Of a DNA stretch of 64,000 bases, positions 56,891 to 64,000 are shown one piece after another. The notes below the pieces were generated by a model that saw nothing but the letters and a program-made list of their open reading frames with translations, was not told the origin of the DNA and did no database searches. Numbering within the stretch: the first letter of the stretch is position 1; the number at the start of each line of letters is the position of its first letter. The stretch lies in IMG/VR virus record IMGVR_UViG_2778261164_000001, positions 1-64,000 of that record; one strand, given 5' to 3'. The DNA is from a virus. Lineage: Duplodnaviria; Heunggongvirae; Uroviricota; Caudoviricetes. The position numbers and the translations under genes were made by a program.

Positions 56891-57079
56891 TAAATATATT
56901 ATTTTTAATGATAAATGATTGACAACTGACAAGTGACTTCAGTCAGAATCATCACACGCCCGGTACGGATGGATCCCTTTTCAAATATTCCATGGACGGC
57001 ACAGTCTGAGTACCGGGCGCTACCTTCAGTTGTATTGCTAAGCCGCCGCTGGTGGCTTTTCTTTTTTGTAGGGGGCGCT

Positions 57080-57721
57080 ATGGATAAGAAAATATGCGTT
57101 GTTTCGATGAGCGTCGGCAAACCGGCGTCAATGACTGCTGCATGGATCAATAACGAGCTGATAATGGCTGAGCGGACCAGCTACCCTGAACGCCGCCGCG
57201 ACATGGAACTCCAGCTGCTGCGCGAATTGCGAGAAAAAGAGGAAAAGGGTTTTATCGTGCTGGTGGAAGAGGAAAACAGCTTTATTACTGGTCGAGTTGG
57301 CCAGCGTGTAAGGTTGCGCGATCCCTTCATGAACGGCAGGCCGGTACTAATTGAGGCAATGCAGATTTATAAGGAGCTAGAACGCCAGAAAGCAATCAAG
57401 TTACCGCGCAAGGAATCCGGCAAATACATCCTCCACCAAAGCATCTTCGATTCCGAACACGATAAAAAAGGCGATGAATTTTTCAACATCAACTGGAGCG
57501 AAATAACGACAGAGCATGTTCTGACGTTACTATGTTGCTTTGCGACGGAATACAACAACGTTGCCAGCGCCGACTACATCAGGGCAATGGTTGGAGAAAT
57601 TGATGCCCGCCAAGAACCGTCGTTACTAAGCTCCCTTGTGAATATAATTCAAGCTACTCATGAAATGACCGCACGGAAAGTGCCTCAAGGTTCATTAACC
57701 GGCAGAGATAATTATCTTTAA
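57080..57721 (+). CDS. mat: particle maturation protein Mat (tentative)
   Basis: ATG at 57080 with AGGGGG RBS (213 aa); ORF-track start 56933 lacks an RBS; synteny after ref. Confidence 0.55.
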   Translation: MDKKICVVSMSVGKPASMTAAWINNELIMAERTSYPERRRDMELQLLRELREKEEKGFIVLVEEENSFITGRVGQRVRLRDPFMNGRPVLIEAMQIYKELERQKAIKLPRKESGKYILHQSIFDSEHDKKGDEFFNINWSEITTEHVLTLLCCFATEYNNVASADYIRAMVGEIDARQEPSLLSSLVNIIQATHEMTARKVPQGSLTGRDNYL

Positions 57722-57763
57722 ACTTCTTGGGCGCTAACTATGCGCCCACGCCCATTACATTAA

Positions 57764-58714
57764 TTAATCAATAAATACACGGAATGGCTCAAGCATCCCT
57801 TCAGGATCTTTATCCTCGTCACCAAGTGATATTAGTCTTCTGGCGAGTAGTTTTACGTCATCATCATCTTTAATGAAGCCAACCTGATCATTATTAAAAT
57901 AGATATCGATTATTTTTAGGATTTGCTCTTGTGTAAAATGATTGAATTTTAATAACTTTGCTACAACTCGATGTGTTGTGGCAAAACTGCCTGAGCGGCG
58001 TAATTCATCTATAGTGAAATTAACTTCCATTTCCGCTAAGTTACTGGCTTGAGGAAAGTGCTCACCTATAAACTCTGATAAGCGGGCATAGATATGTGGT
58101 TCTGAATCTTTCTTCTTTTTCCACTCGTACTTCAAATACTCATTCATATCATCCTTTATAAAGGCACTTTTATAATCACCATCTTCAGTTATAATGTATA
58201 TATCCTCTCCGTTTGGTATCGCCTTTAGCAAACACTCCCAATTGACTGCATCACCATATGATTTATTTTTACCCGGAGGGTTGCCAAGATCGAATCGGCG
58301 TTTCCCTTTTTCTATTGTTTCATCATCAGCCTCTATCTTAGACGCTGCATCAAAAATCCTTTTAATTACAACATCGGCAGCTAAAGACTCTTCTTTAAAT
58401 AAGTTCTGTATATCGGTAATAATTTCATTCTTTAGCCGACTAGCTTCTATAACCTTATCATTAAATAGTGAATGTTTTTCATGCTGCCTGAAAATCTGTG
58501 GTAGCGCGGGCTTGTAGTCTTTTGCAATTTCCTTTATGGTTTCAGAGAGAACTTTAGAACGATTTCTCCAGAACTCATTCACTAAAAGTTCTGGCAACCA
58601 AAGTTTTAAACGACCATATTGATGTAAGGCAAATACTTTATCTAGCTCATCTAGTTTATCCTTACCCATTCGATAAAATTCCAAATATAGATTTGTATCA
58701 ATAAAAACATTCAT
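57764..58714 (-). CDS. PIN-like nuclease domain protein (316 aa), candidate defence or exclusion gene
   Basis: N-terminus MNVFIDTNLYLEFY carries the PIN hhhDTN motif; further acidic positions (ITEDGD, GDAVNW); AT-rich, Lys-rich; AGGA RBS; occupies the slot between mat and lxc. Confidence 0.65.
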   Translation of the reverse strand: MNVFIDTNLYLEFYRMGKDKLDELDKVFALHQYGRLKLWLPELLVNEFWRNRSKVLSETIKEIAKDYKPALPQIFRQHEKHSLFNDKVIEASRLKNEIITDIQNLFKEESLAADVVIKRIFDAASKIEADDETIEKGKRRFDLGNPPGKNKSYGDAVNWECLLKAIPNGEDIYIITEDGDYKSAFIKDDMNEYLKYEWKKKKDSEPHIYARLSEFIGEHFPQASNLAEMEVNFTIDELRRSGSFATTHRVVAKLLKFNHFTQEQILKIIDIYFNNDQVGFIKDDDDVKLLARRLISLGDEDKDPEGMLEPFRVFID

Positions 58715-58775
58715 ATCACATCCTAATTATAAGTAATTTAGGCCACTCTAAAAAATAAAGTGGCCTAATAAGAAA

Positions 58776-59024
58776 TCAATCAGCATTCAGAAGCAATGCG
58801 TTATCTATGATGATCTGCTCCCATTCTTCGAATGCCCGATCGCGGACACCTTGGGGAACACTGTTAGTTTTGAAATCGACGACCGTCCGCCATTTCCCGT
58901 CCGGGCGGTACATGCGCAGAGCTTTACTTCCCCCTTCCCTGCGCACCTCAACGTTATGCTTGTCAGCAAACTCTTGTAATGCTCGTAGCGTCCCATGCTT
59001 TACTGTGTAGTATCGCTTTTTCAA
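58776..59024 (-). CDS. lxc: Lxc/Bof, C1 co-repressor
   Basis: 82 aa, the size of P1 Bof; lies downstream of ulx and darB-like gene. Confidence 0.7.
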   Translation of the reverse strand: MKKRYYTVKHGTLRALQEFADKHNVEVRREGGSKALRMYRPDGKWRTVVDFKTNSVPQGVRDRAFEEWEQIIIDNALLLNAD

Positions 59025-59461
59025 GTTTTCTCTCCAGCCTGTGCCAAGGCTTCAACTTCCAAATCGTAAGACTCAAACTCATAGTCCTGGTCGTCAACTT
59101 CTTCAGGCACTGGCAGTAAATGCCAGGCTGAGTATATCTGACCATTATCAAAACGCTCCTGGCTGTAGAGCGTCGCGGCTATGAGTGTTAGCGCCGGGCG
59201 GTCATAACGGTAAATTTTGCGAACGTCACGGTCAACGAGACGACCGAAATTACCATAACCGCGCTCCAGTAATAATTTTTTAATTTCCGGCCAGTATGGA
59301 CCATAGCTGCGGTACAGGCGGGGATTTTTCAGTAATCGCCCGCGTAGCCCTGACAGGAAGAAATCAACGTATTCGTCTTCTGTCTTTCCTAACAACGCCG
59401 TACGCAGTACCGCCTCAAGATATGTTTTATTCGGTTTTATTGTATCAGATAGTGTGGCCAT
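59021..59461 (-). CDS. ulx: small protein upstream of lxc
   Basis: 146-aa ORF overlapping lxc start. Confidence 0.5.
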   Translation of the reverse strand: MATLSDTIKPNKTYLEAVLRTALLGKTEDEYVDFFLSGLRGRLLKNPRLYRSYGPYWPEIKKLLLERGYGNFGRLVDRDVRKIYRYDRPALTLIAATLYSQERFDNGQIYSAWHLLPVPEEVDDQDYEFESYDLEVEALAQAGEKT

Positions 59462-59494: not shown

Positions 59495-62400
59495 TTATGC
59501 GTATTGTTGGATGACGGCCAGAACGTCCGCCACGTTGTGTTTTGTCTCGATAATCCACCAGTTACCCGGGAAATCGCTGTTCTTTGCCTTCGCTGGCAGC
59601 CAGCGAGCGCCGAATTTCGCCTTGATTGCGTCTTTCGCACGGAAAAGAATGCCTTTCATGCCGGACGCCTCCTGAAGCCCAAATACCTCGCCAGCGGCGA
59701 ATTTTGGTGCGTACATCATCTTCAGGTCGGCGGTGGATACGCGATAATTCAGACCAAGAGACTGAGCTATGCTGGTGGCATCACCCTGTATTGATGATAA
59801 CTCTTCTTGTTTCTCGTTTCTGGCGGCAATTTCTTCCTCCGAGATGTTGCCAAGGGCCAGGTTTATCCGATCAGCGTCTGCCTGTTTCTCTTCATCGGTG
59901 CGCCCGGAAAGTACCGTGTTAATTCTGTGCAATATCTCCACATGATTCTTGCGCATGCTGAGTAATTCCGGCGTAACCTCGTTAAGGTCCACCAGCCCAA
60001 GGATGGCAAGGTCAGTAAACATTGATACCAGGTTGTAGGTCATGCGATAGCTGAGTTGGCCATAGGCTGATGGCAACTGCACCGCATCCATTTTATAGGC
60101 ATCCATAAATTTAGAGCCGTCGTTTACGACATCCGCAATTGCCGGTGTGATTTTTCCTGTGGTGGCGGCCTCCCTGATTGCTGTTACCCACGATTGAGTC
60201 AGCACGGCGACTGCATGATTCAGATTGGCTTTCCGTTCTGCTGCAATGCGCGCACTTGCTGCGTCCATTGCCTGCTTGATCTCGTCTTTATTACTGTAAA
60301 TGCCAATGGTGCCAAACTGTGCTGTGGTGATCTCATAATCTGACGCCCGGAACTCATTGGTACCGAAAATGGCATTGGTGACTTCAAGTTCAGAATCCCC
60401 GTTACGAGTAGCCCCCTGGCTTGTTTTTTCCGGCATTCTGGCGATCGCATCCGCTATTTTCTCCTGAATTGCTTCAGGGGATAGCGTATCTCCGTATGAC
60501 GCGATTACATCGCCATAATTGGAGCCAAACAGTTCAACCAGGAATGTTTCTGCCGAACGGATCTGGCGGTTATTCCCTTCCGACATCATACTAAGCACCC
60601 ATTTTGCAATTGACGACTTCAGCGCGCCGTCACGGCGATCCGGGTAAACCGCATGCTTCAGTGGGTCCGTATAGGTACCAACAAAATCAATGCTATAGCC
60701 TGACTCTGTAGTCTGAACGCCGTATGAGTCAGTGATTTTGATCATGCCGCGCTGCTGGAAACGGTAGAAATCGTCACAGGAAATGATGTCGTTAATCCCG
60801 GCGATGGAGACGCCGCCACTGATTTTCTGCATAACAGCATCTTCATCGGGAGTTACATCAACCTGTTTATCCAGCGTCTTCACATCCCAGTTACCCGATT
60901 TGGTGCCTTTGAAGGTAAAGATGATCTCCACGTCTGCGCGCTGGCTGTCGAAGTCCAGCGACTTAATGCGAACGATATCACCGGCACAATCGTAGTATTG
61001 GCCTACACGCCATGAGCGATCGCCGATAACAAGGAACTCACTCGCATGATTAACCAGGTCAGGATCAACATCCAGAATGCCTTTATTTATTGCATCCTCC
61101 ACCAGCGGGCGCAGGCGTTTGATATCCGTCGCGGCCTTCTGAGTACGGTTCAATAATTTCTCATAGCGGGAGATGGCTTGAGAGATATTAGCCTTGCGCT
61201 GAATGGCACTTTTCAACGACGCGCGATACTGTGCTAACAACGTACGGTCTGTGTGATGGACGCTACCCCAGCGGGCTTTCCAGTCTGCGTTATCAGCTGC
61301 TTTGGCCTTTACCGCCTGTTTGAATTTAGCTACCTCGGCGGTGGTCTTTTCAAGTTCCGCTTTGCTTCGCTCTAATTCAGCGGTAAGTACCTCCACATCC
61401 TCGCCAGCTGCGTGCTGCGCCTTGATGTAGTTCTGAAGGTCGATAGTAGCCTGTTCTTTCTGGCGAGCGCGTTGCGCGGCTTTCGCCTTATCCATTTGAA
61501 CCTGCATCATTGCCAGACGTTCGCCATCATCCTTAGCGGTATACATCTGCATTTCGATCATATCGTTGGCGTCGGCGTTCTCCATTTCTGACTTATCTGA
61601 ACGGAGGATATCGGAGATCCAGCCTGCTTTACGCTTCAGCGTCTTCAGTCGGTATTCATCGAAAGAACCCTTGCCGCAGTAGTAGTGAACGCGAACGCTT
61701 GCACGGTTGGAGCCAACTCGGGCACCGCGACCGTTACGTTGTGCGATACTGGCTGGAGTCCACGGCAACGTCAGATGATGGATGTCAGTCGTTCCTCGAT
61801 GCAGGTTGATACCCACCTCTGCCTTTTTGTTGCAGATGATGATCGGAGTCCGGCCCTCCTGGAAGTCTGCTGCAATCTTTTCCAGACCGCCCAACGACAT
61901 TTCATTTTGCTGCGCGATATAGGCGTCATACAGAGCCATTTGCTCGTTGTATTTCGCTATCTGTGCATCTGTTGGTTCATCCGGTAACTCTTTCGGCGGT
62001 TTAACCGCTTTCAGTTTCTTACCGGTTTTACCTGCCTCGGCAACCGTCTGAGCATTCAGGATCCCCACCTTTGAAGGTTCAAGGTTAAGAGCATTGCAGA
62101 TAATGCGCTTGAGCTTCTGGTGCTGCGTTTTTTCGTCCGTGAAGATGATTTGCTTACCTTCCGGGAAAAACTCCTTCAGCGTGGCGATCAGCTTCGCGTA
62201 TTTGGGTGTAACGGGGTGAGTTACGGTCTGTTCGTCAATGCCAAAATTGGCCAGGCGCTTATTCACTTCCTGCTCGAACGCTTCCGGAACCTGCAACTGA
62301 ATAAACTCGCCCTTATCTATCAGGGAGTATTGCGATTGCTGCGTGATAGAATCATCACTGTCGTCGTCTTCGCTGGTGGCTTGTTTAGGCAAACTGTCCG

Positions 62401-64000
62401 CCAGCTGCTGCACCGCATCGGCGTACTCCGGCAGGAAACGATAGGTGATCCGGCGATAGTACAGGTCCATGTCAGTACATACGCGGTCCATATCCCTGAT
62501 TATTGAGAAGATCGGACGGGCTTTCTCGTGCTCAATCACGCCGTCTTCATTGACCGAGGACGTTACGCCATTGTTGGCTTTGGCTGCCGCTTCCGCCTGC
62601 TGACGCAATTCTTCATACGCCGCCAGTTGTTCTTCAGTAAGTGGTGCATCCTGCTGGTGTTCGTCCAGCTCCGGGATCTCCACGGTATCCTTAACGTCTT
62701 CCGCCGTTTTAAGCGTTACCCAGCGATGGAATATACCGCGCAGCGCATCAAGGTTTTCAAAGCCCACCAGCGCCATTTTTTCTTCAACTTCACCGCTGAT
62801 TTTCTGTACCGTTTCCAGCCTGGTCTTGCCGAAGAATTTAACGAAGTCATCAGGACTGTAGATCCCCATCTTCTGCCAGTATTCCTTCGGCAGAACATGA
62901 GAAAGCATGTTGTATGCATCGATCGGGGTGTTAACGACTGGCGTTGCAGTCAGGAGAACCGGTCCGCGCCCGCCATTCTTTTTCATCAGGTACGCGTTTT
63001 TGATTGCCATATCTCGCGCCGATTGCGCCACCGCGCTGGTGGGCAGATAGGCCAACTGTGACGCTTCGCGACCATTTTTATAGCTATTGCGGTAGTTGTG
63101 GCCTTCGTCAACGATCACGCTATCGAAGCCCATATCCTCAAAGTACGGATACTTATCTGATTTTTCGGTGCCGGTATCTGAATACTCCGACAATATACGG
63201 CGACGCGCGGCCTCTTTGCGGTGGGAGTCGGAGTCCATTGCGCTGGCTACACGCCCGGCGGCAACAAAGTCCAAAAGCATATCTTGAGCATGCTCATCTA
63301 CGGTTTCATCGCGTAGAGGAAGGCGGAAGTATTGTTCTTTGGTGAGCACTACAGCACGGTAATTTGAGTGCGGGATAGCGTTTATCCGCGCCGTGATAGT
63401 GGCTTCATCAGCCAGCTTAAGGGCATCGCGCATAACGGGAGTGCCATCTGCACCAACGACAGGTTTACCGTTCTCATCGAGTACCGGCACCTGGCGAATC
63501 TGATCGCCATCCATCAGCACATCAAGACCGACAAACAGGTAGTTACTGAATGCCTCTTCACTCAGGAACTCTTTTGCCTCGTAATACCAGTTTTCCAGCA
63601 CTGATTTAGGTACTACATACAAAGTTCTGGTTGATCGGCCATTCTCATAGTTGAACGCCTCAAGCGCCAGCGCGGTCGTCGTTTTACCCAGCCCGGTGCC
63701 GAAGCCCAGGATGCCGCGCCCATCTTCGGACAGTCGGCGTACCTCGCTATTCTGGTAATCAAATGGCTGGCGCTTACCGCTTAATCCCTTCAACCCAAGC
63801 GGATCGCCAGAGTGTTCATACGGGATATTGCTATTGAACACATCGTTGTATTTGGCAACCAGTTCATCGTAGCGATCGTGCGTCTTGATCCACTTATTGA
63901 ACTGGTCCTCAAGCAGTGCCATCTGCTCGCGGTAGCCGTTCGCCGTCGCGCTATCTTTGCCACCGATACGCGCACCATTGAGATACTTTTCCAGCTGTGC
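59495..64000 (-). CDS. darB: DarB-like SF2 helicase protein, partial (N-terminal part beyond window end)
   Basis: Frame stays open through the window end upstream of the listed ATG at 63922; helicase motifs GTGLGKTT, DEGH and QRNGRGARVG. Confidence 0.75.
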   Translation of the reverse strand, partial: AQLEKYLNGARIGGKDSATANGYREQMALLEDQFNKWIKTHDRYDELVAKYNDVFNSNIPYEHSGDPLGLKGLSGKRQPFDYQNSEVRRLSEDGRGILGFGTGLGKTTTALALEAFNYENGRSTRTLYVVPKSVLENWYYEAKEFLSEEAFSNYLFVGLDVLMDGDQIRQVPVLDENGKPVVGADGTPVMRDALKLADEATITARINAIPHSNYRAVVLTKEQYFRLPLRDETVDEHAQDMLLDFVAAGRVASAMDSDSHRKEAARRRILSEYSDTGTEKSDKYPYFEDMGFDSVIVDEGHNYRNSYKNGREASQLAYLPTSAVAQSARDMAIKNAYLMKKNGGRGPVLLTATPVVNTPIDAYNMLSHVLPKEYWQKMGIYSPDDFVKFFGKTRLETVQKISGEVEEKMALVGFENLDALRGIFHRWVTLKTAEDVKDTVEIPELDEHQQDAPLTEEQLAAYEELRQQAEAAAKANNGVTSSVNEDGVIEHEKARPIFSIIRDMDRVCTDMDLYYRRITYRFLPEYADAVQQLADSLPKQATSEDDDSDDSITQQSQYSLIDKGEFIQLQVPEAFEQEVNKRLANFGIDEQTVTHPVTPKYAKLIATLKEFFPEGKQIIFTDEKTQHQKLKRIICNALNLEPSKVGILNAQTVAEAGKTGKKLKAVKPPKELPDEPTDAQIAKYNEQMALYDAYIAQQNEMSLGGLEKIAADFQEGRTPIIICNKKAEVGINLHRGTTDIHHLTLPWTPASIAQRNGRGARVGSNRASVRVHYYCGKGSFDEYRLKTLKRKAGWISDILRSDKSEMENADANDMIEMQMYTAKDDGERLAMMQVQMDKAKAAQRARQKEQATIDLQNYIKAQHAAGEDVEVLTAELERSKAELEKTTAEVAKFKQAVKAKAADNADWKARWGSVHHTDRTLLAQYRASLKSAIQRKANISQAISRYEKLLNRTQKAATDIKRLRPLVEDAINKGILDVDPDLVNHASEFLVIGDRSWRVGQYYDCAGDIVRIKSLDFDSQRADVEIIFTFKGTKSGNWDVKTLDKQVDVTPDEDAVMQKISGGVSIAGINDIISCDDFYRFQQRGMIKITDSYGVQTTESGYSIDFVGTYTDPLKHAVYPDRRDGALKSSIAKWVLSMMSEGNNRQIRSAETFLVELFGSNYGDVIASYGDTLSPEAIQEKIADAIARMPEKTSQGATRNGDSELEVTNAIFGTNEFRASDYEITTAQFGTIGIYSNKDEIKQAMDAASARIAAERKANLNHAVAVLTQSWVTAIREAATTGKITPAIADVVNDGSKFMDAYKMDAVQLPSAYGQLSYRMTYNLVSMFTDLAILGLVDLNEVTPELLSMRKNHVEILHRINTVLSGRTDEEKQADADRINLALGNISEEEIAARNEKQEELSSIQGDATSIAQSLGLNYRVSTADLKMMYAPKFAAGEVFGLQEASGMKGILFRAKDAIKAKFGARWLPAKAKNSDFPGNWWIIETKHNVADVLAVIQQYA

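What the first reader, a model, noticed from the sequence alone, without database searches (positions are those of the whole stretch)
57722..58775. Single AT-rich PIN-like gene occupies the restriction-modification slot between mat and lxc
In P1 the interval between mat and lxc-ulx-darB holds the EcoP1I res-mod genes and IS1. Here the conserved flanks (ref, mat on one side; lxc, ulx, darB-like on the other) bracket one 316-aa minus-strand gene instead. Its product starts MNVFIDTNLYLEFY, a PIN-type hhhDTN signature, with further acidic candidate catalytic residues (ITEDGD, GDAVNW), followed by a roughly 150-aa Lys-rich region I cannot assign. By eye the gene is much more AT-rich than the backbone and is bounded by inverted repeats (57729-57747 and 58740-58766). 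A standalone nuclease-fold gene at a defence hotspot, next to the Dar antirestriction genes, is a plausible new single-gene anti-phage or exclusion determinant.
Basis: partly seen in the sequence, partly recalled or inferred. Interest (0 to 1): 0.85.

Follow-up and report, generated by a model that had tools for sequence, protein, structure and literature searches.

The report
Standalone PIN nuclease in P1 defence slot
A P1-like phage-plasmid carries, in the swappable slot where phage P1 keeps its restriction enzyme, a single foreign gene for a PIN-type RNA-cutting enzyme fused to a helical sensor-like tail; it is very probably an untested anti-phage immunity gene, and a published machine-learning screen has already flagged it as one.

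Summary

The gene is not core. About 30 of 699 P1-like elements in complete E. coli genomes carry it. The same mat-lxc slot elsewhere holds EcoP1I, CapRel-SJ46, SIR2 or other cargo, or nothing.

No antitoxin or partner gene is present. The best reading is a self-contained, infection-activated PIN RNase that aborts infection. This has not been tested.

A near-identical allele, WP_033545800.1, is already listed as a top-scoring "predicted novel defense gene" in DefensePredictor Table S10. The closest validated relative, DS-5, uses a PIN_12 nuclease but needs a partner that is absent here.

The two "inverted repeats" are unrelated local hairpins. The C-terminal region is not Lys-rich. P1 has no IS1 in this interval.

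Verdict: new variant of a known kind, moderate interest.

The parts
57764..58714 (-). Complete CDS (316 aa plus stop) of the PIN_12-family protein. It is identical to RefSeq WP_023153803.1, 'PIN domain-containing protein'.
   Evidence: ORF. Accession. The exact sequence is seen on 927 contigs. Between the two P1-borne alleles, 58 codons differ synonymously and 21 nonsynonymously.
58085..58714 (-). N-terminal VapC-like PIN nuclease domain (aa 1-210) with a long helical insert at about aa 42-110. Catalytic candidates and their codons: D6 (58697-58699), E47 (58574-58576), D114 (58373-58375), D155 (58250-58252), D178 (58181-58183).
57767..58081 (-). C-terminal all-helical HEAT/ARM-like module (aa 212-316). 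Conserved residues: F215, S241, F244, L254, N275, Q277, I281, D284, D286.
57728..57748 (.). GC-rich hairpin (7-bp stem) in the 42-bp gap between the convergent stop codons of mat and the PIN gene. It is probably a shared transcript end.
   Evidence: Fold energy -14.2 kcal/mol, z = -4.05. Present in both PIN alleles.
58738..58768 (-). Hairpin with a 13-bp stem between the lxc stop (58776) and the PIN start (58714). It is part of the cassette. It is terminator-like but has a weak T tract.
   Evidence: Fold energy -19.7 kcal/mol, z = -5.87. Flagged as terminator-like. Shared by both PIN alleles and absent from other cargo types.
57590..57721 (+). Divergent 3' end of mat that travels with the cassette. 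This is the left recombination boundary.
   Evidence: megablast homology to other Punavirus mat genes stops at window position ~57590 or ~57650.
56933..57721 (+). mat, the conserved left flank.
58776..59024 (-). lxc, the conserved right flank. Homology among all cargo types resumes at about its stop codon.
59021..59461 (-). ulx, part of the conserved backbone.
   Evidence: lxc-ulx is found in 699 of 5426 complete E. coli genomes.
59495..64000 (-). darB, intact, running off the window end.
   Evidence: Ungapped 97.4% alignment to JL22 darB, and the open frame continues to the window edge.

Best explanation
The gene is single-gene cargo of the P1-family mat-lxc defence hotspot. It encodes a self-contained abortive-infection-type immunity protein.

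Proposed mechanism:
1. The N-terminal VapC-like PIN_12 domain is a metal-dependent endoribonuclease. Its most likely targets are tRNA or rRNA, as for VapC toxins.
2. The protein is made in the lysogen. It stays inactive because no antitoxin exists, so control must be built into the protein itself.
3. The C-terminal HEAT-like helical module is the regulatory and sensing part.
4. On infection by another phage, a trigger binds that module, or changes the oligomeric state, and switches the RNase on. Translation stops and the infection is blocked.
5. By analogy with DARNA/PD-T7-3, the trigger may be phage-SSB-presented ssDNA.

Shown here:
- The fold and an intact catalytic set.
- The single-gene architecture with no partner.
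- Hotspot position, horizontal acquisition and purifying selection.
- Relatedness of the tail to PDC-S34, and weakly to PD-T7-3.

Inferred:
- RNase activity and its substrate.
- Autoinhibition and the identity of the trigger.
- The defence phenotype.
For: - PIN_12 and PIN_8 score above Pfam gathering cut-offs.
- D6, E47, D114, D155, D178 and D180 are invariant in 70 homologs spanning Gammaproteobacteria and Bacteroidota.
- The slot is variable: P1 and two other plasmids carry type III R-M. SJ46 carries CapRel-SJ46, whose slot gene matches PDB 7ZTB over its full 373 aa (E 1e-250), a validated defence. Others carry a SIR2 gene that hits ThsA, LmuA and Dsr2 models. RCS47 has an empty slot.
- PIN is present in 30 of 699 P1-like backbones.
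- GC3 of 0.30 marks the gene as foreign DNA.
- The synonymous-to-nonsynonymous count of 58:21 shows purifying selection on both domains.
- Distant homologs sit in an island next to hsdM, HNH, Mrr and McrA-like genes, at the integrase end of a prophage, and beside DUF4011 helicases.
- There is no partner or antitoxin, and no neighbour is conserved across contexts. The family was reported as monocistronic.
- DefensePredictor gives allele WP_033545800.1 a mean log-odds of 14.1 and labels it 'Predicted novel defense gene'.
- Validated precedents exist. DS-5 has a PIN_12 nuclease whose catalytic mutants lose defence. DS-3 is a single-protein PIN with no antitoxin.
- The tail hits PDC-S34 in every member and PD-T7-3 in 8/36 members. 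An independent HHblits result gives 79.6% probability to a PD-T7-3 homolog.
- The DARNA C-terminal domain senses ssDNA and activates a tRNase.
Against: - There are no experimental data for this protein or its subfamily.
- PDC-S34 is itself an untested candidate.
- The PD-T7-3 similarity is weak: best E 1.3e-4, in a minority of members, over about 50-90 residues.
- The HEAT-like fold is generic.
- The C-terminal module is locked to this PIN domain and is not visibly shuffled among effectors.
- No convincing sigma-70 promoter lies upstream, so expression in the lysogen is assumed and not shown.
- Several other cargoes of the slot (EAL+HTH, YaaC, GNAT, icd/ant) match no defence model. Slot residence alone therefore does not prove defence.
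Confidence: 0.6

Rival explanations
1. It is a plasmid-addiction or toxin module. The PIN protein would be a VapC-type toxin that stabilises the phage-plasmid by killing segregants, with an antitoxin encoded elsewhere or acting in cis.
For: The VapC-like fold is the classic type II toxin fold. The element is a low-copy plasmid prophage.
Against: No antitoxin-sized ORF fits in the cassette: there are 42 bp and 61 bp of intergenic DNA on the two sides. No Rfam RNA is found there. Homologs are monocistronic with no conserved neighbours in chromosomal islands and prophages. Sibling cargoes in the slot are defence systems, not addiction modules.
Confidence: 0.1
2. It is a phage offensive or counter-defence function. 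The nuclease would be used by the P1-like phage during its own lytic growth or entry, for example for host RNA shut-off, and would be functionally linked to the neighbouring Dar antirestriction genes.
For: It is co-directional with lxc-ulx-darB and lies 61 bp downstream of lxc, with no clear promoter of its own. One BFVD viral protein (E 5e-4, PIN-like) and PHROG 9788 show related proteins in phages.
Against: About 96% of P1-like elements lack it, so it is dispensable for the phage. Cargoes in this slot point in either direction. Homologs occur in non-phage islands beside restriction genes. A context-aware defence predictor scores it very high.
Confidence: 0.1
3. It is a passenger gene with no function related to phage conflict, or one that is decaying. 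For example, it could be an RNA-processing PIN protein, as in the JGI label 'rRNA-processing protein FCF1'.
For: Some homologs carry automated FCF1 or 'nucleic acid-binding' labels. Several other cargoes in the slot have no recognised defence role.
Against: The ORF is intact in all 30 or so copies and is under purifying selection. The catalytic set is invariant. Its distribution is sporadic, mobile-element-borne and AT-rich.
Confidence: 0.1

Closest known systems
DS-5 ('PN12') of DefensePredictor (DeWeirdt et al., Science 2026, PMC13092281): WP_021513008.1 plus WP_021513009.1
   Same: The nuclease protein belongs to the same Pfam family. DS-5B scores 64.4 bits on PIN_12 and the window protein scores 65.9 bits. 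DS-5 comes from E. coli. Its PIN catalytic mutants lose anti-phage defence.
   Different: DS-5 needs a second protein of 166 aa (DUF5830 plus an AcrIF4-like domain). That protein is absent from the window and from the neighbourhoods of homologs. DS-5B is 376 aa with an unrelated C-terminal half. Only residues 1-59 align to this subfamily's profile, at 82% probability. DS-5B does not hit PDC-S34.
DARNA (formerly PD-T7-3; RCP48690.1; bioRxiv 10.64898/2026.02.22.705581)
   Same: It is a single-protein abortive-infection RNase: an N-terminal nuclease followed by a C-terminal helical HEAT/Pds5-like domain. The distal part of that tail is the region weakly matched by this family: PD-T7-3 profile positions 323-414 of 432, and HHblits 79.6% probability. 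In DARNA that region binds ssDNA and switches on tRNA cleavage.
   Different: The DARNA nuclease is a HEPN domain with an Rx4H motif, not a PIN domain. DARNA is 456 aa with a helical domain of about 300 aa, against about 105 aa here. Sequence similarity is marginal and was not verified residue by residue. Oligomeric state and trigger are unknown for the window protein.
PADLOC phage-defence candidate PDC-S34 (Payne et al., bioRxiv 10.1101/2024.01.29.577857)
   Same: All 70 family members hit the PDC-S34 model, best E 3e-17, always with their C-terminal module.
   Different: Only positions 297-380 of the 384-position profile are matched, so the N-terminal 300 positions are not shared at HMM level. 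PDC systems are untested candidates. I could not find what PDC-S34 looks like.
DS-3 of DefensePredictor (WP_022645725.1)
   Same: It is a one-protein PIN-RNase defence with no antitoxin. Its authors propose that it is auto-inhibited until infection. The working principle matches the one proposed here.
   Different: There is no detectable homology: hhalign probability 1%, and no PIN_12 or PIN_8 Pfam hit. Its PIN domain is split between the two termini.
CapRel-SJ46 (Zhang et al., Nature 2022, PMC9712102)
   Same: It occupies exactly the same mat-lxc slot in the P1-like phage SJ46. It is a single polypeptide with a toxic N-terminal enzyme and a C-terminal regulatory and sensor domain.
   Different: Its enzyme is unrelated: a toxSAS tRNA pyrophosphokinase. 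Its sensor is also unrelated. It is encoded on the opposite strand.
VapC toxins of VapBC type II toxin-antitoxin systems
   Different: There is no VapB antitoxin gene. The protein has a helical insert of about 65 aa and an extra domain of about 105 aa. VapC proteins are about 130 aa.

Membership tests
PIN domain-like superfamily, VapC group, Pfam PIN_12 (PF16289, formerly DUF4935) | Profile match above the curated threshold | tested here: met
   PIN_12 scores 65.9 bits against a cut-off of 32 and covers profile positions 1-172 of 172. PIN_8 scores 55.1 bits against 26.1.
PIN domain-like superfamily, VapC group, Pfam PIN_12 (PF16289, formerly DUF4935) | Conserved acidic residues of the metal-binding active site | tested here: met
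   D6, E47, D114, D155, D178 and D180 are invariant in 70 sequences that are 34-95% identical to the query.
PIN domain-like superfamily, VapC group, Pfam PIN_12 (PF16289, formerly DUF4935) | PIN alpha/beta fold | tested here: met
PIN domain-like superfamily, VapC group, Pfam PIN_12 (PF16289, formerly DUF4935) | Metal-dependent nuclease activity | not testable with these tools
   This needs biochemistry.
DS-5 (two-gene PIN_12 defence system) | PIN_12 nuclease protein homologous to DS-5B over its full length | tested here: not met
   It is in the same Pfam family, but hhalign aligns only residues 1-59. tblastn of DS-5B finds nothing in the window at E <= 10.
DS-5 (two-gene PIN_12 defence system) | Adjacent DS-5A partner (DUF5830 / AcrIF4-like), which is required for defence | tested here: not met
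   tblastn of DS-5A against the window and loci L008, L011, L012 and L013 gives only hits with E above 1. The cassette has room for one gene only.
DARNA / PD-T7-3 | N-terminal HEPN RNase with an Rx4H motif | tested here: not met
   The N-terminus is a PIN domain and there is no HEPN hit.
DARNA / PD-T7-3 | C-terminal helical domain whose distal part binds ssDNA (F368, D372, Q403, W406) | tested here: inconclusive
   The PD-T7-3 HMM is hit by 8/36 C-terminal segments, best E 1.3e-4, over profile positions 323-414 of 432. Table S10 reports an HHblits probability of 79.6%. The fold class is the same.
DARNA / PD-T7-3 | Dodecameric assembly and activation by ssDNA presented by phage SSB | not testable with these tools
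   This needs biochemistry or cryo-EM.
PADLOC PDC-S34 | Full-length match to the PDC-S34 model | tested here: not met
   Only profile positions 297-380 of 384 are matched.
VapBC type II toxin-antitoxin | Cognate antitoxin gene adjacent to the toxin | tested here: not met
   There is no ORF in the 42-bp and 61-bp flanking gaps. Homologs have no conserved neighbour.
Cargo of a prophage-encoded defence hotspot | Alternative, unrelated gene sets between the same conserved flanks, including an empty site | tested here: met
   The slot holds EcoP1I, CapRel, SIR2, YaaC plus a partner, EAL plus HTH, GNAT, icd/ant or IS elements, or is empty.
Cargo of a prophage-encoded defence hotspot | Sibling cargoes include experimentally validated defence systems | tested here: met
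   The SJ46 slot gene matches PDB 7ZTB (CapRel-SJ46) over its full 373 aa, E 1e-250. Its defence function is reported in PMC9712102. EcoP1I is annotated in P1.
Cargo of a prophage-encoded defence hotspot | Anti-phage phenotype of this cargo | not testable with these tools
   Only a computational prediction exists.

The most novel reading that the evidence does not exclude
The helical tail of about 90 aa is a portable ssDNA-sensing (or phage-SSB-ssDNA-sensing) module. It would be shared by at least three otherwise unrelated immunity proteins: DARNA with a HEPN effector, PDC-S34 with an unknown N-terminus, and this family with a PIN_12 effector. The window protein would then be an effector-swapped DARNA, that is, a PIN tRNase switched on by ssDNA that is exposed during replication of an infecting phage. 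It would also show that the P1 mat-lxc slot exchanges whole sensor-effector fusions of this kind.
Probability: 0.2. Interest if true: 0.7.

Novelty: new variant of a known kind. Interest (0 to 1): 0.45.

Why it matters
If confirmed, this would be a compact anti-phage system of one gene and 316 aa carried by a transducing phage-plasmid family. That family is present in about 13% of complete E. coli genomes. The gene would add a third architecture to PIN-based immunity, next to DS-3 and DS-5. It may also show that the DARNA-type sensor tail can drive a different nuclease, which bears on how bacterial immune sensors and effectors are recombined.

It also marks the P1 mat-lxc interval, which is the native home of EcoP1I and CapRel-SJ46, as a high-turnover hotspot. 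About half of its cargo types are still uncharacterised (EAL+HTH, YaaC plus a partner, GNAT). This makes the interval a cheap place to look for new systems.

Tried and rejected
- **Cassette-bounding inverted repeats (mobile-element ends).** Rejected. The two elements share no sequence and each folds on itself.
- **RNA antitoxin or riboregulator in the cassette.** Rfam finds nothing at E <= 1. There are no tandem or direct repeats of note.
- **darB disruption.** This was suggested by an ORF that starts at 63922. Rejected: the frame is open to the window edge and aligns without gaps to JL22 darB.
- **Other effectors fused to the C-terminal module.** A phmmer search of 1.84 billion representatives found essentially only the same architecture of about 320 aa, plus fragments. 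A profile search returned only 15 short fragments.
- **Sequence search of the PDB.** Neither the whole protein nor the C-terminal profile gave a meaningful hit.
- **Getting the DARNA sequence or structure.** The PDB entries are not in the local copies. The ECOR30 contig is not in the collections. No supplement text is held. AFDB50 was unavailable.
- **Identifying PDC-S34.** Neither the literature nor the PDC paper's supplements mention it by name, model id or Pfam id.
- **One wasted literature search.** PIN_8 and PIN_12 collided with plant PIN-FORMED papers and with journal DOIs.
- **Promoter search.** No sigma-70-like site was found upstream of the start. By eye, the P1 P2mod -10 element at the lxc stop is not conserved here.
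Full report
**1. The observation**

A 951-nt minus-strand ORF (57764-58714, 316 aa, start MNVFIDTN) lies between mat (56933-57721, +) and lxc (58776-59024, -). ulx and darB follow lxc. The order cre, ref, mat, X, lxc, ulx, darB matches Punavirus records.

The gene is clearly foreign in composition. Its GC is 0.354 and its GC3 is 0.30. The flanking genes have GC 0.48-0.51 and GC3 0.53-0.58.

- The two 'bounding inverted repeats' share no sequence. Each is a stable local hairpin. One is at 57728-57748, in the 42-bp gap between the convergent mat and PIN stop codons (-14.2 kcal/mol, z = -4.1). The other is at 58738-58768, between the lxc stop and the PIN start (13-bp stem, -19.7 kcal/mol, z = -5.9).
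- The unassigned C-terminal part is about 105 aa and is not Lys-rich (5.7% K, net charge -7). The PIN half is the Lys-rich one.
- The P1 reference record has IS5 inserted in mod. It has no IS1 in this interval.

**2. What the protein is**

Pfam places residues 3-181 in PIN_12 (PF16289, formerly DUF4935) at 65.9 bits against a cut-off of 32, covering the whole profile. PIN_8 also matches, at 55.1 bits. NCBIfam has no model. PHROGs gives only a family of unknown function.

A database search returned 157 homologs. Nearly all are 315-335 aa and align over their full length. They come from Enterobacterales, Vibrio and many Bacteroidota.

In a 70-sequence alignment (34-95% identity to the query) these residues are invariant: D6, N8, E47, R50-N51-R52, D114, R140, P146-P-G-K149, S152, G154-D155, W159, D178, D180, E197-W198, F215 and N275. 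This is a full PIN acidic set plus family-specific motifs.

The 2017 PIN classification already described DUF4935. It called it a VapC-group PIN domain with a long helical insert and an unassigned C-terminal region, usually monocistronic, of unknown function.

**3. The C-terminal module**

A sequence search with this part alone against 1.84 billion representatives found 545 hits. These were essentially always at residues ~198-300 of proteins of ~320 aa, or fragments of them. A profile search added only fragments. So the module is tied to this PIN domain.

At HMM level it is related to two defence families.
- All 70 members hit the PADLOC candidate PDC-S34, but only positions ~297-380 of its 384-position profile.
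- 8 of 36 C-terminal segments hit PD-T7-3 (best E 1.3e-4), over positions 323-414 of its 432-position profile.
- Independently, DefensePredictor Table S10 reports an HHblits match of this protein to a PD-T7-3 homolog, with 79.6% probability over 16% of the query.

**4. The locus is a hotspot and the gene is accessory**

The 1054-bp interval is found in one phage record (JL22, annotated as hypothetical), in 23 PLSDB plasmids, and in 30 of 5426 complete E. coli genomes. It is always on plasmids of roughly 90-108 kb. It occurs as two alleles, 99-100% and 90% identical. The lxc-ulx backbone is present in 699 genomes. The PIN gene is therefore in about 4% of P1-like elements.

Other occupants of the slot, among the records I inspected:

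| Occupant | Records |
|---|---|
| EcoP1I-type res/mod | P1 and two plasmids |
| Nothing | RCS47 |
| CapRel-type RelA/SpoT gene | SJ46, 673R5, AR_0372 |
| SIR2 protein | LR-21-1 |
| YaaC plus a partner | UK_Dog_Liverpool |
| EAL plus HTH | S56, TOK-001 |
| Uncharacterised gene plus HTH | Ro157c2YLVW |
| GNAT | NCCP15648 |
| icd/antirepressor module | 95JB1 |
| IS elements | MEW |

The SJ46 gene matches PDB 7ZTB, CapRel-SJ46, over its full 373 aa (E 1e-250). CapRel-SJ46 is a validated fused toxin-antitoxin defence. The SIR2 cargo hits the ThsA, LmuA and Dsr2 models, and the RelA/SpoT cargo hits PDC-S33. The other cargoes hit nothing in PADLOC.

Rough genome counts for each cargo's DNA are below. 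Slot position was checked only for the sampled records.

| Cargo | Genomes (of 5426) |
|---|---|
| EAL | 137 |
| YaaC plus partner | 109 |
| EcoP1I res | 88 (57 on plasmids) |
| SIR2 | 70 |
| PIN | 30 |
| CapRel-SJ46 allele | 14 |

Junction alignments show that conserved backbone resumes at about the lxc stop codon. On the left, homology breaks inside the last ~70-130 nt of mat. A diverged mat 3' end therefore travels with each cassette.

**5. Standalone architecture**

The cassette has room for one gene. tblastn with the DS-5 partner protein finds nothing in the window or next to distant homologs. The neighbours of homologs in Klebsiella/E. coli islands, a Pantoea prophage and a Vibrio island share no similarity with each other. 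Those contexts look like defence settings: hsdM, HNH, Mrr and McrA-like genes; the serine-recombinase end of a prophage; and large DUF4011 helicases.

Between the two P1-borne alleles, 58 codons differ synonymously and 21 nonsynonymously, spread evenly over both domains. The whole protein is under purifying selection.

**6. Comparison with what is known**

- *DefensePredictor (Science 2026).* It validated two PIN systems from E. coli. DS-3 is a 340-aa single protein with a split PIN domain and no antitoxin, proposed to be auto-inhibited. DS-5 is a PIN_12 protein of 376 aa plus a 166-aa partner, with both needed for defence. In both systems, catalytic mutants lose defence.
- *My tests against these.* DS-5B is in the same Pfam family (64.4 bits). 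Only its first 59 residues align to this subfamily's profile (82% probability). It has a different C-terminal half and does not hit PDC-S34. DS-3 is unrelated.
- *Same paper, Table S10.* It lists WP_033545800.1 among uncharacterised clusters, with a mean log-odds of 14.1 and the label 'Predicted novel defense gene'. It is about the 15th row. It was not among the cloned systems. This is the JL22/CP041922 allele, one residue different from the window protein.
- *PDC systems.* They are explicitly untested candidates.
- *PD-T7-3.* It has been characterised as DARNA. It has a HEPN tRNA anticodon nuclease domain. Its Pds5-like helical C-terminal domain binds ssDNA through F368, D372, N402, Q403, Y405, W406 and N408. 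ssDNA presented by phage SSB activates the dodecamer.

**7. Mechanism proposed**

*Shown.* The protein has an intact VapC-like PIN active site. It has a conserved, independently folding helical tail. There is no partner gene. It sits in a hotspot, was acquired horizontally and is under purifying selection.

*Inferred.* The protein is a metal-dependent endoRNase that stays inactive in the lysogen and is switched on by infection, giving abortive infection. The tail is the regulatory and sensing element.

*Speculative.* The tail senses ssDNA as in DARNA. The family-conserved F244, H248, N275, Q277, W/F280 and D284 have spacing similar to that of the DARNA contact residues. I could not obtain the DARNA sequence or coordinates to check this. 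The HMM similarity is weak.

*Open.* How the gene is expressed. No sigma-70-like promoter was found. Read-through from the lxc promoters across the upstream hairpin is possible.

**8. Verdict**

The finding is real, and the core of its interpretation is reasonable. This is an accessory, horizontally acquired, single-gene PIN nuclease in a true defence hotspot. It is not a member of DS-5, DS-3, DARNA, PDC-S34 or VapBC by their defining features. It combines a nuclease family and, probably, a tail type that are each already linked to defence.

A published model has already predicted it to be defensive, and no experiment exists. I rate it a new variant of a known kind, with moderate interest. The most valuable follow-ups are a phage-panel test with catalytic and tail mutants, and a structural comparison with DARNA.

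Noticed in passing
window 57590-57721 (3' end of mat); loci L002-L007: The last ~70-130 nt of mat diverge between P1-like elements in step with the cargo type. The two PIN alleles share one mat tail, and other cargoes have other tails. So the recombination that swaps cargo seems to break inside mat, and Mat C-termini differ between elements.
   Followed up: partly
mat-lxc slot of P1-like elements: L005, L006, L014-L023: The native locus of the well-studied CapRel-SJ46 is this same slot. The slot also recurrently carries uncharacterised cargoes with no PADLOC match: EAL plus HTH (137 genomes), YaaC plus a 169-aa partner (109 genomes), and GNAT. I found no paper that describes this P1 interval as a defence hotspot.
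   Followed up: partly
window 58715-58775: Only 61 bp separate the lxc stop from the PIN start, and a hairpin with a 13-bp stem fills most of it. A perfect TATAAT lies 11 nt before the ATG in this allele, which is too close for a normal leader. In the 90% allele it reads CTTAAT. How the gene is transcribed is unclear.
   Followed up: partly
window 58194-58517 (+): A 107-aa ORF runs antisense inside the PIN gene. It is probably an artefact of the AT-rich, stop-poor opposite strand. I did not examine it further.
   Followed up: no
P0275 (118 aa, Flavobacterium, on a 3.47-Mb contig) and other 110-200-aa hits: Some proteins consist of the C-terminal helical module alone. At least one is on a long chromosomal contig. 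These may be split genes or free-standing copies of the module.
   Followed up: no
L008-L011 (Klebsiella/E. coli integrative island): A 63%-identical homolog sits in a CP4-57-like island (AlpA, YfjT, DUF905, DUF932, KlcA-like antirestriction, RadC, CbeA/CbtA). It lies between an HNH_2 gene and a YeeP-like GTPase and is flanked by hsdM, Mrr_cat and ScoMcrA-like genes. In one variant an IS66 has replaced the HNH gene but left the PIN gene intact.
   Followed up: no
L021 (p95JB1A), mat-lxc slot: In this element the slot holds a second icd-like gene and a KilAC antirepressor gene, a copy of an immunity-region module, in place of a defence-type gene.
   Followed up: no
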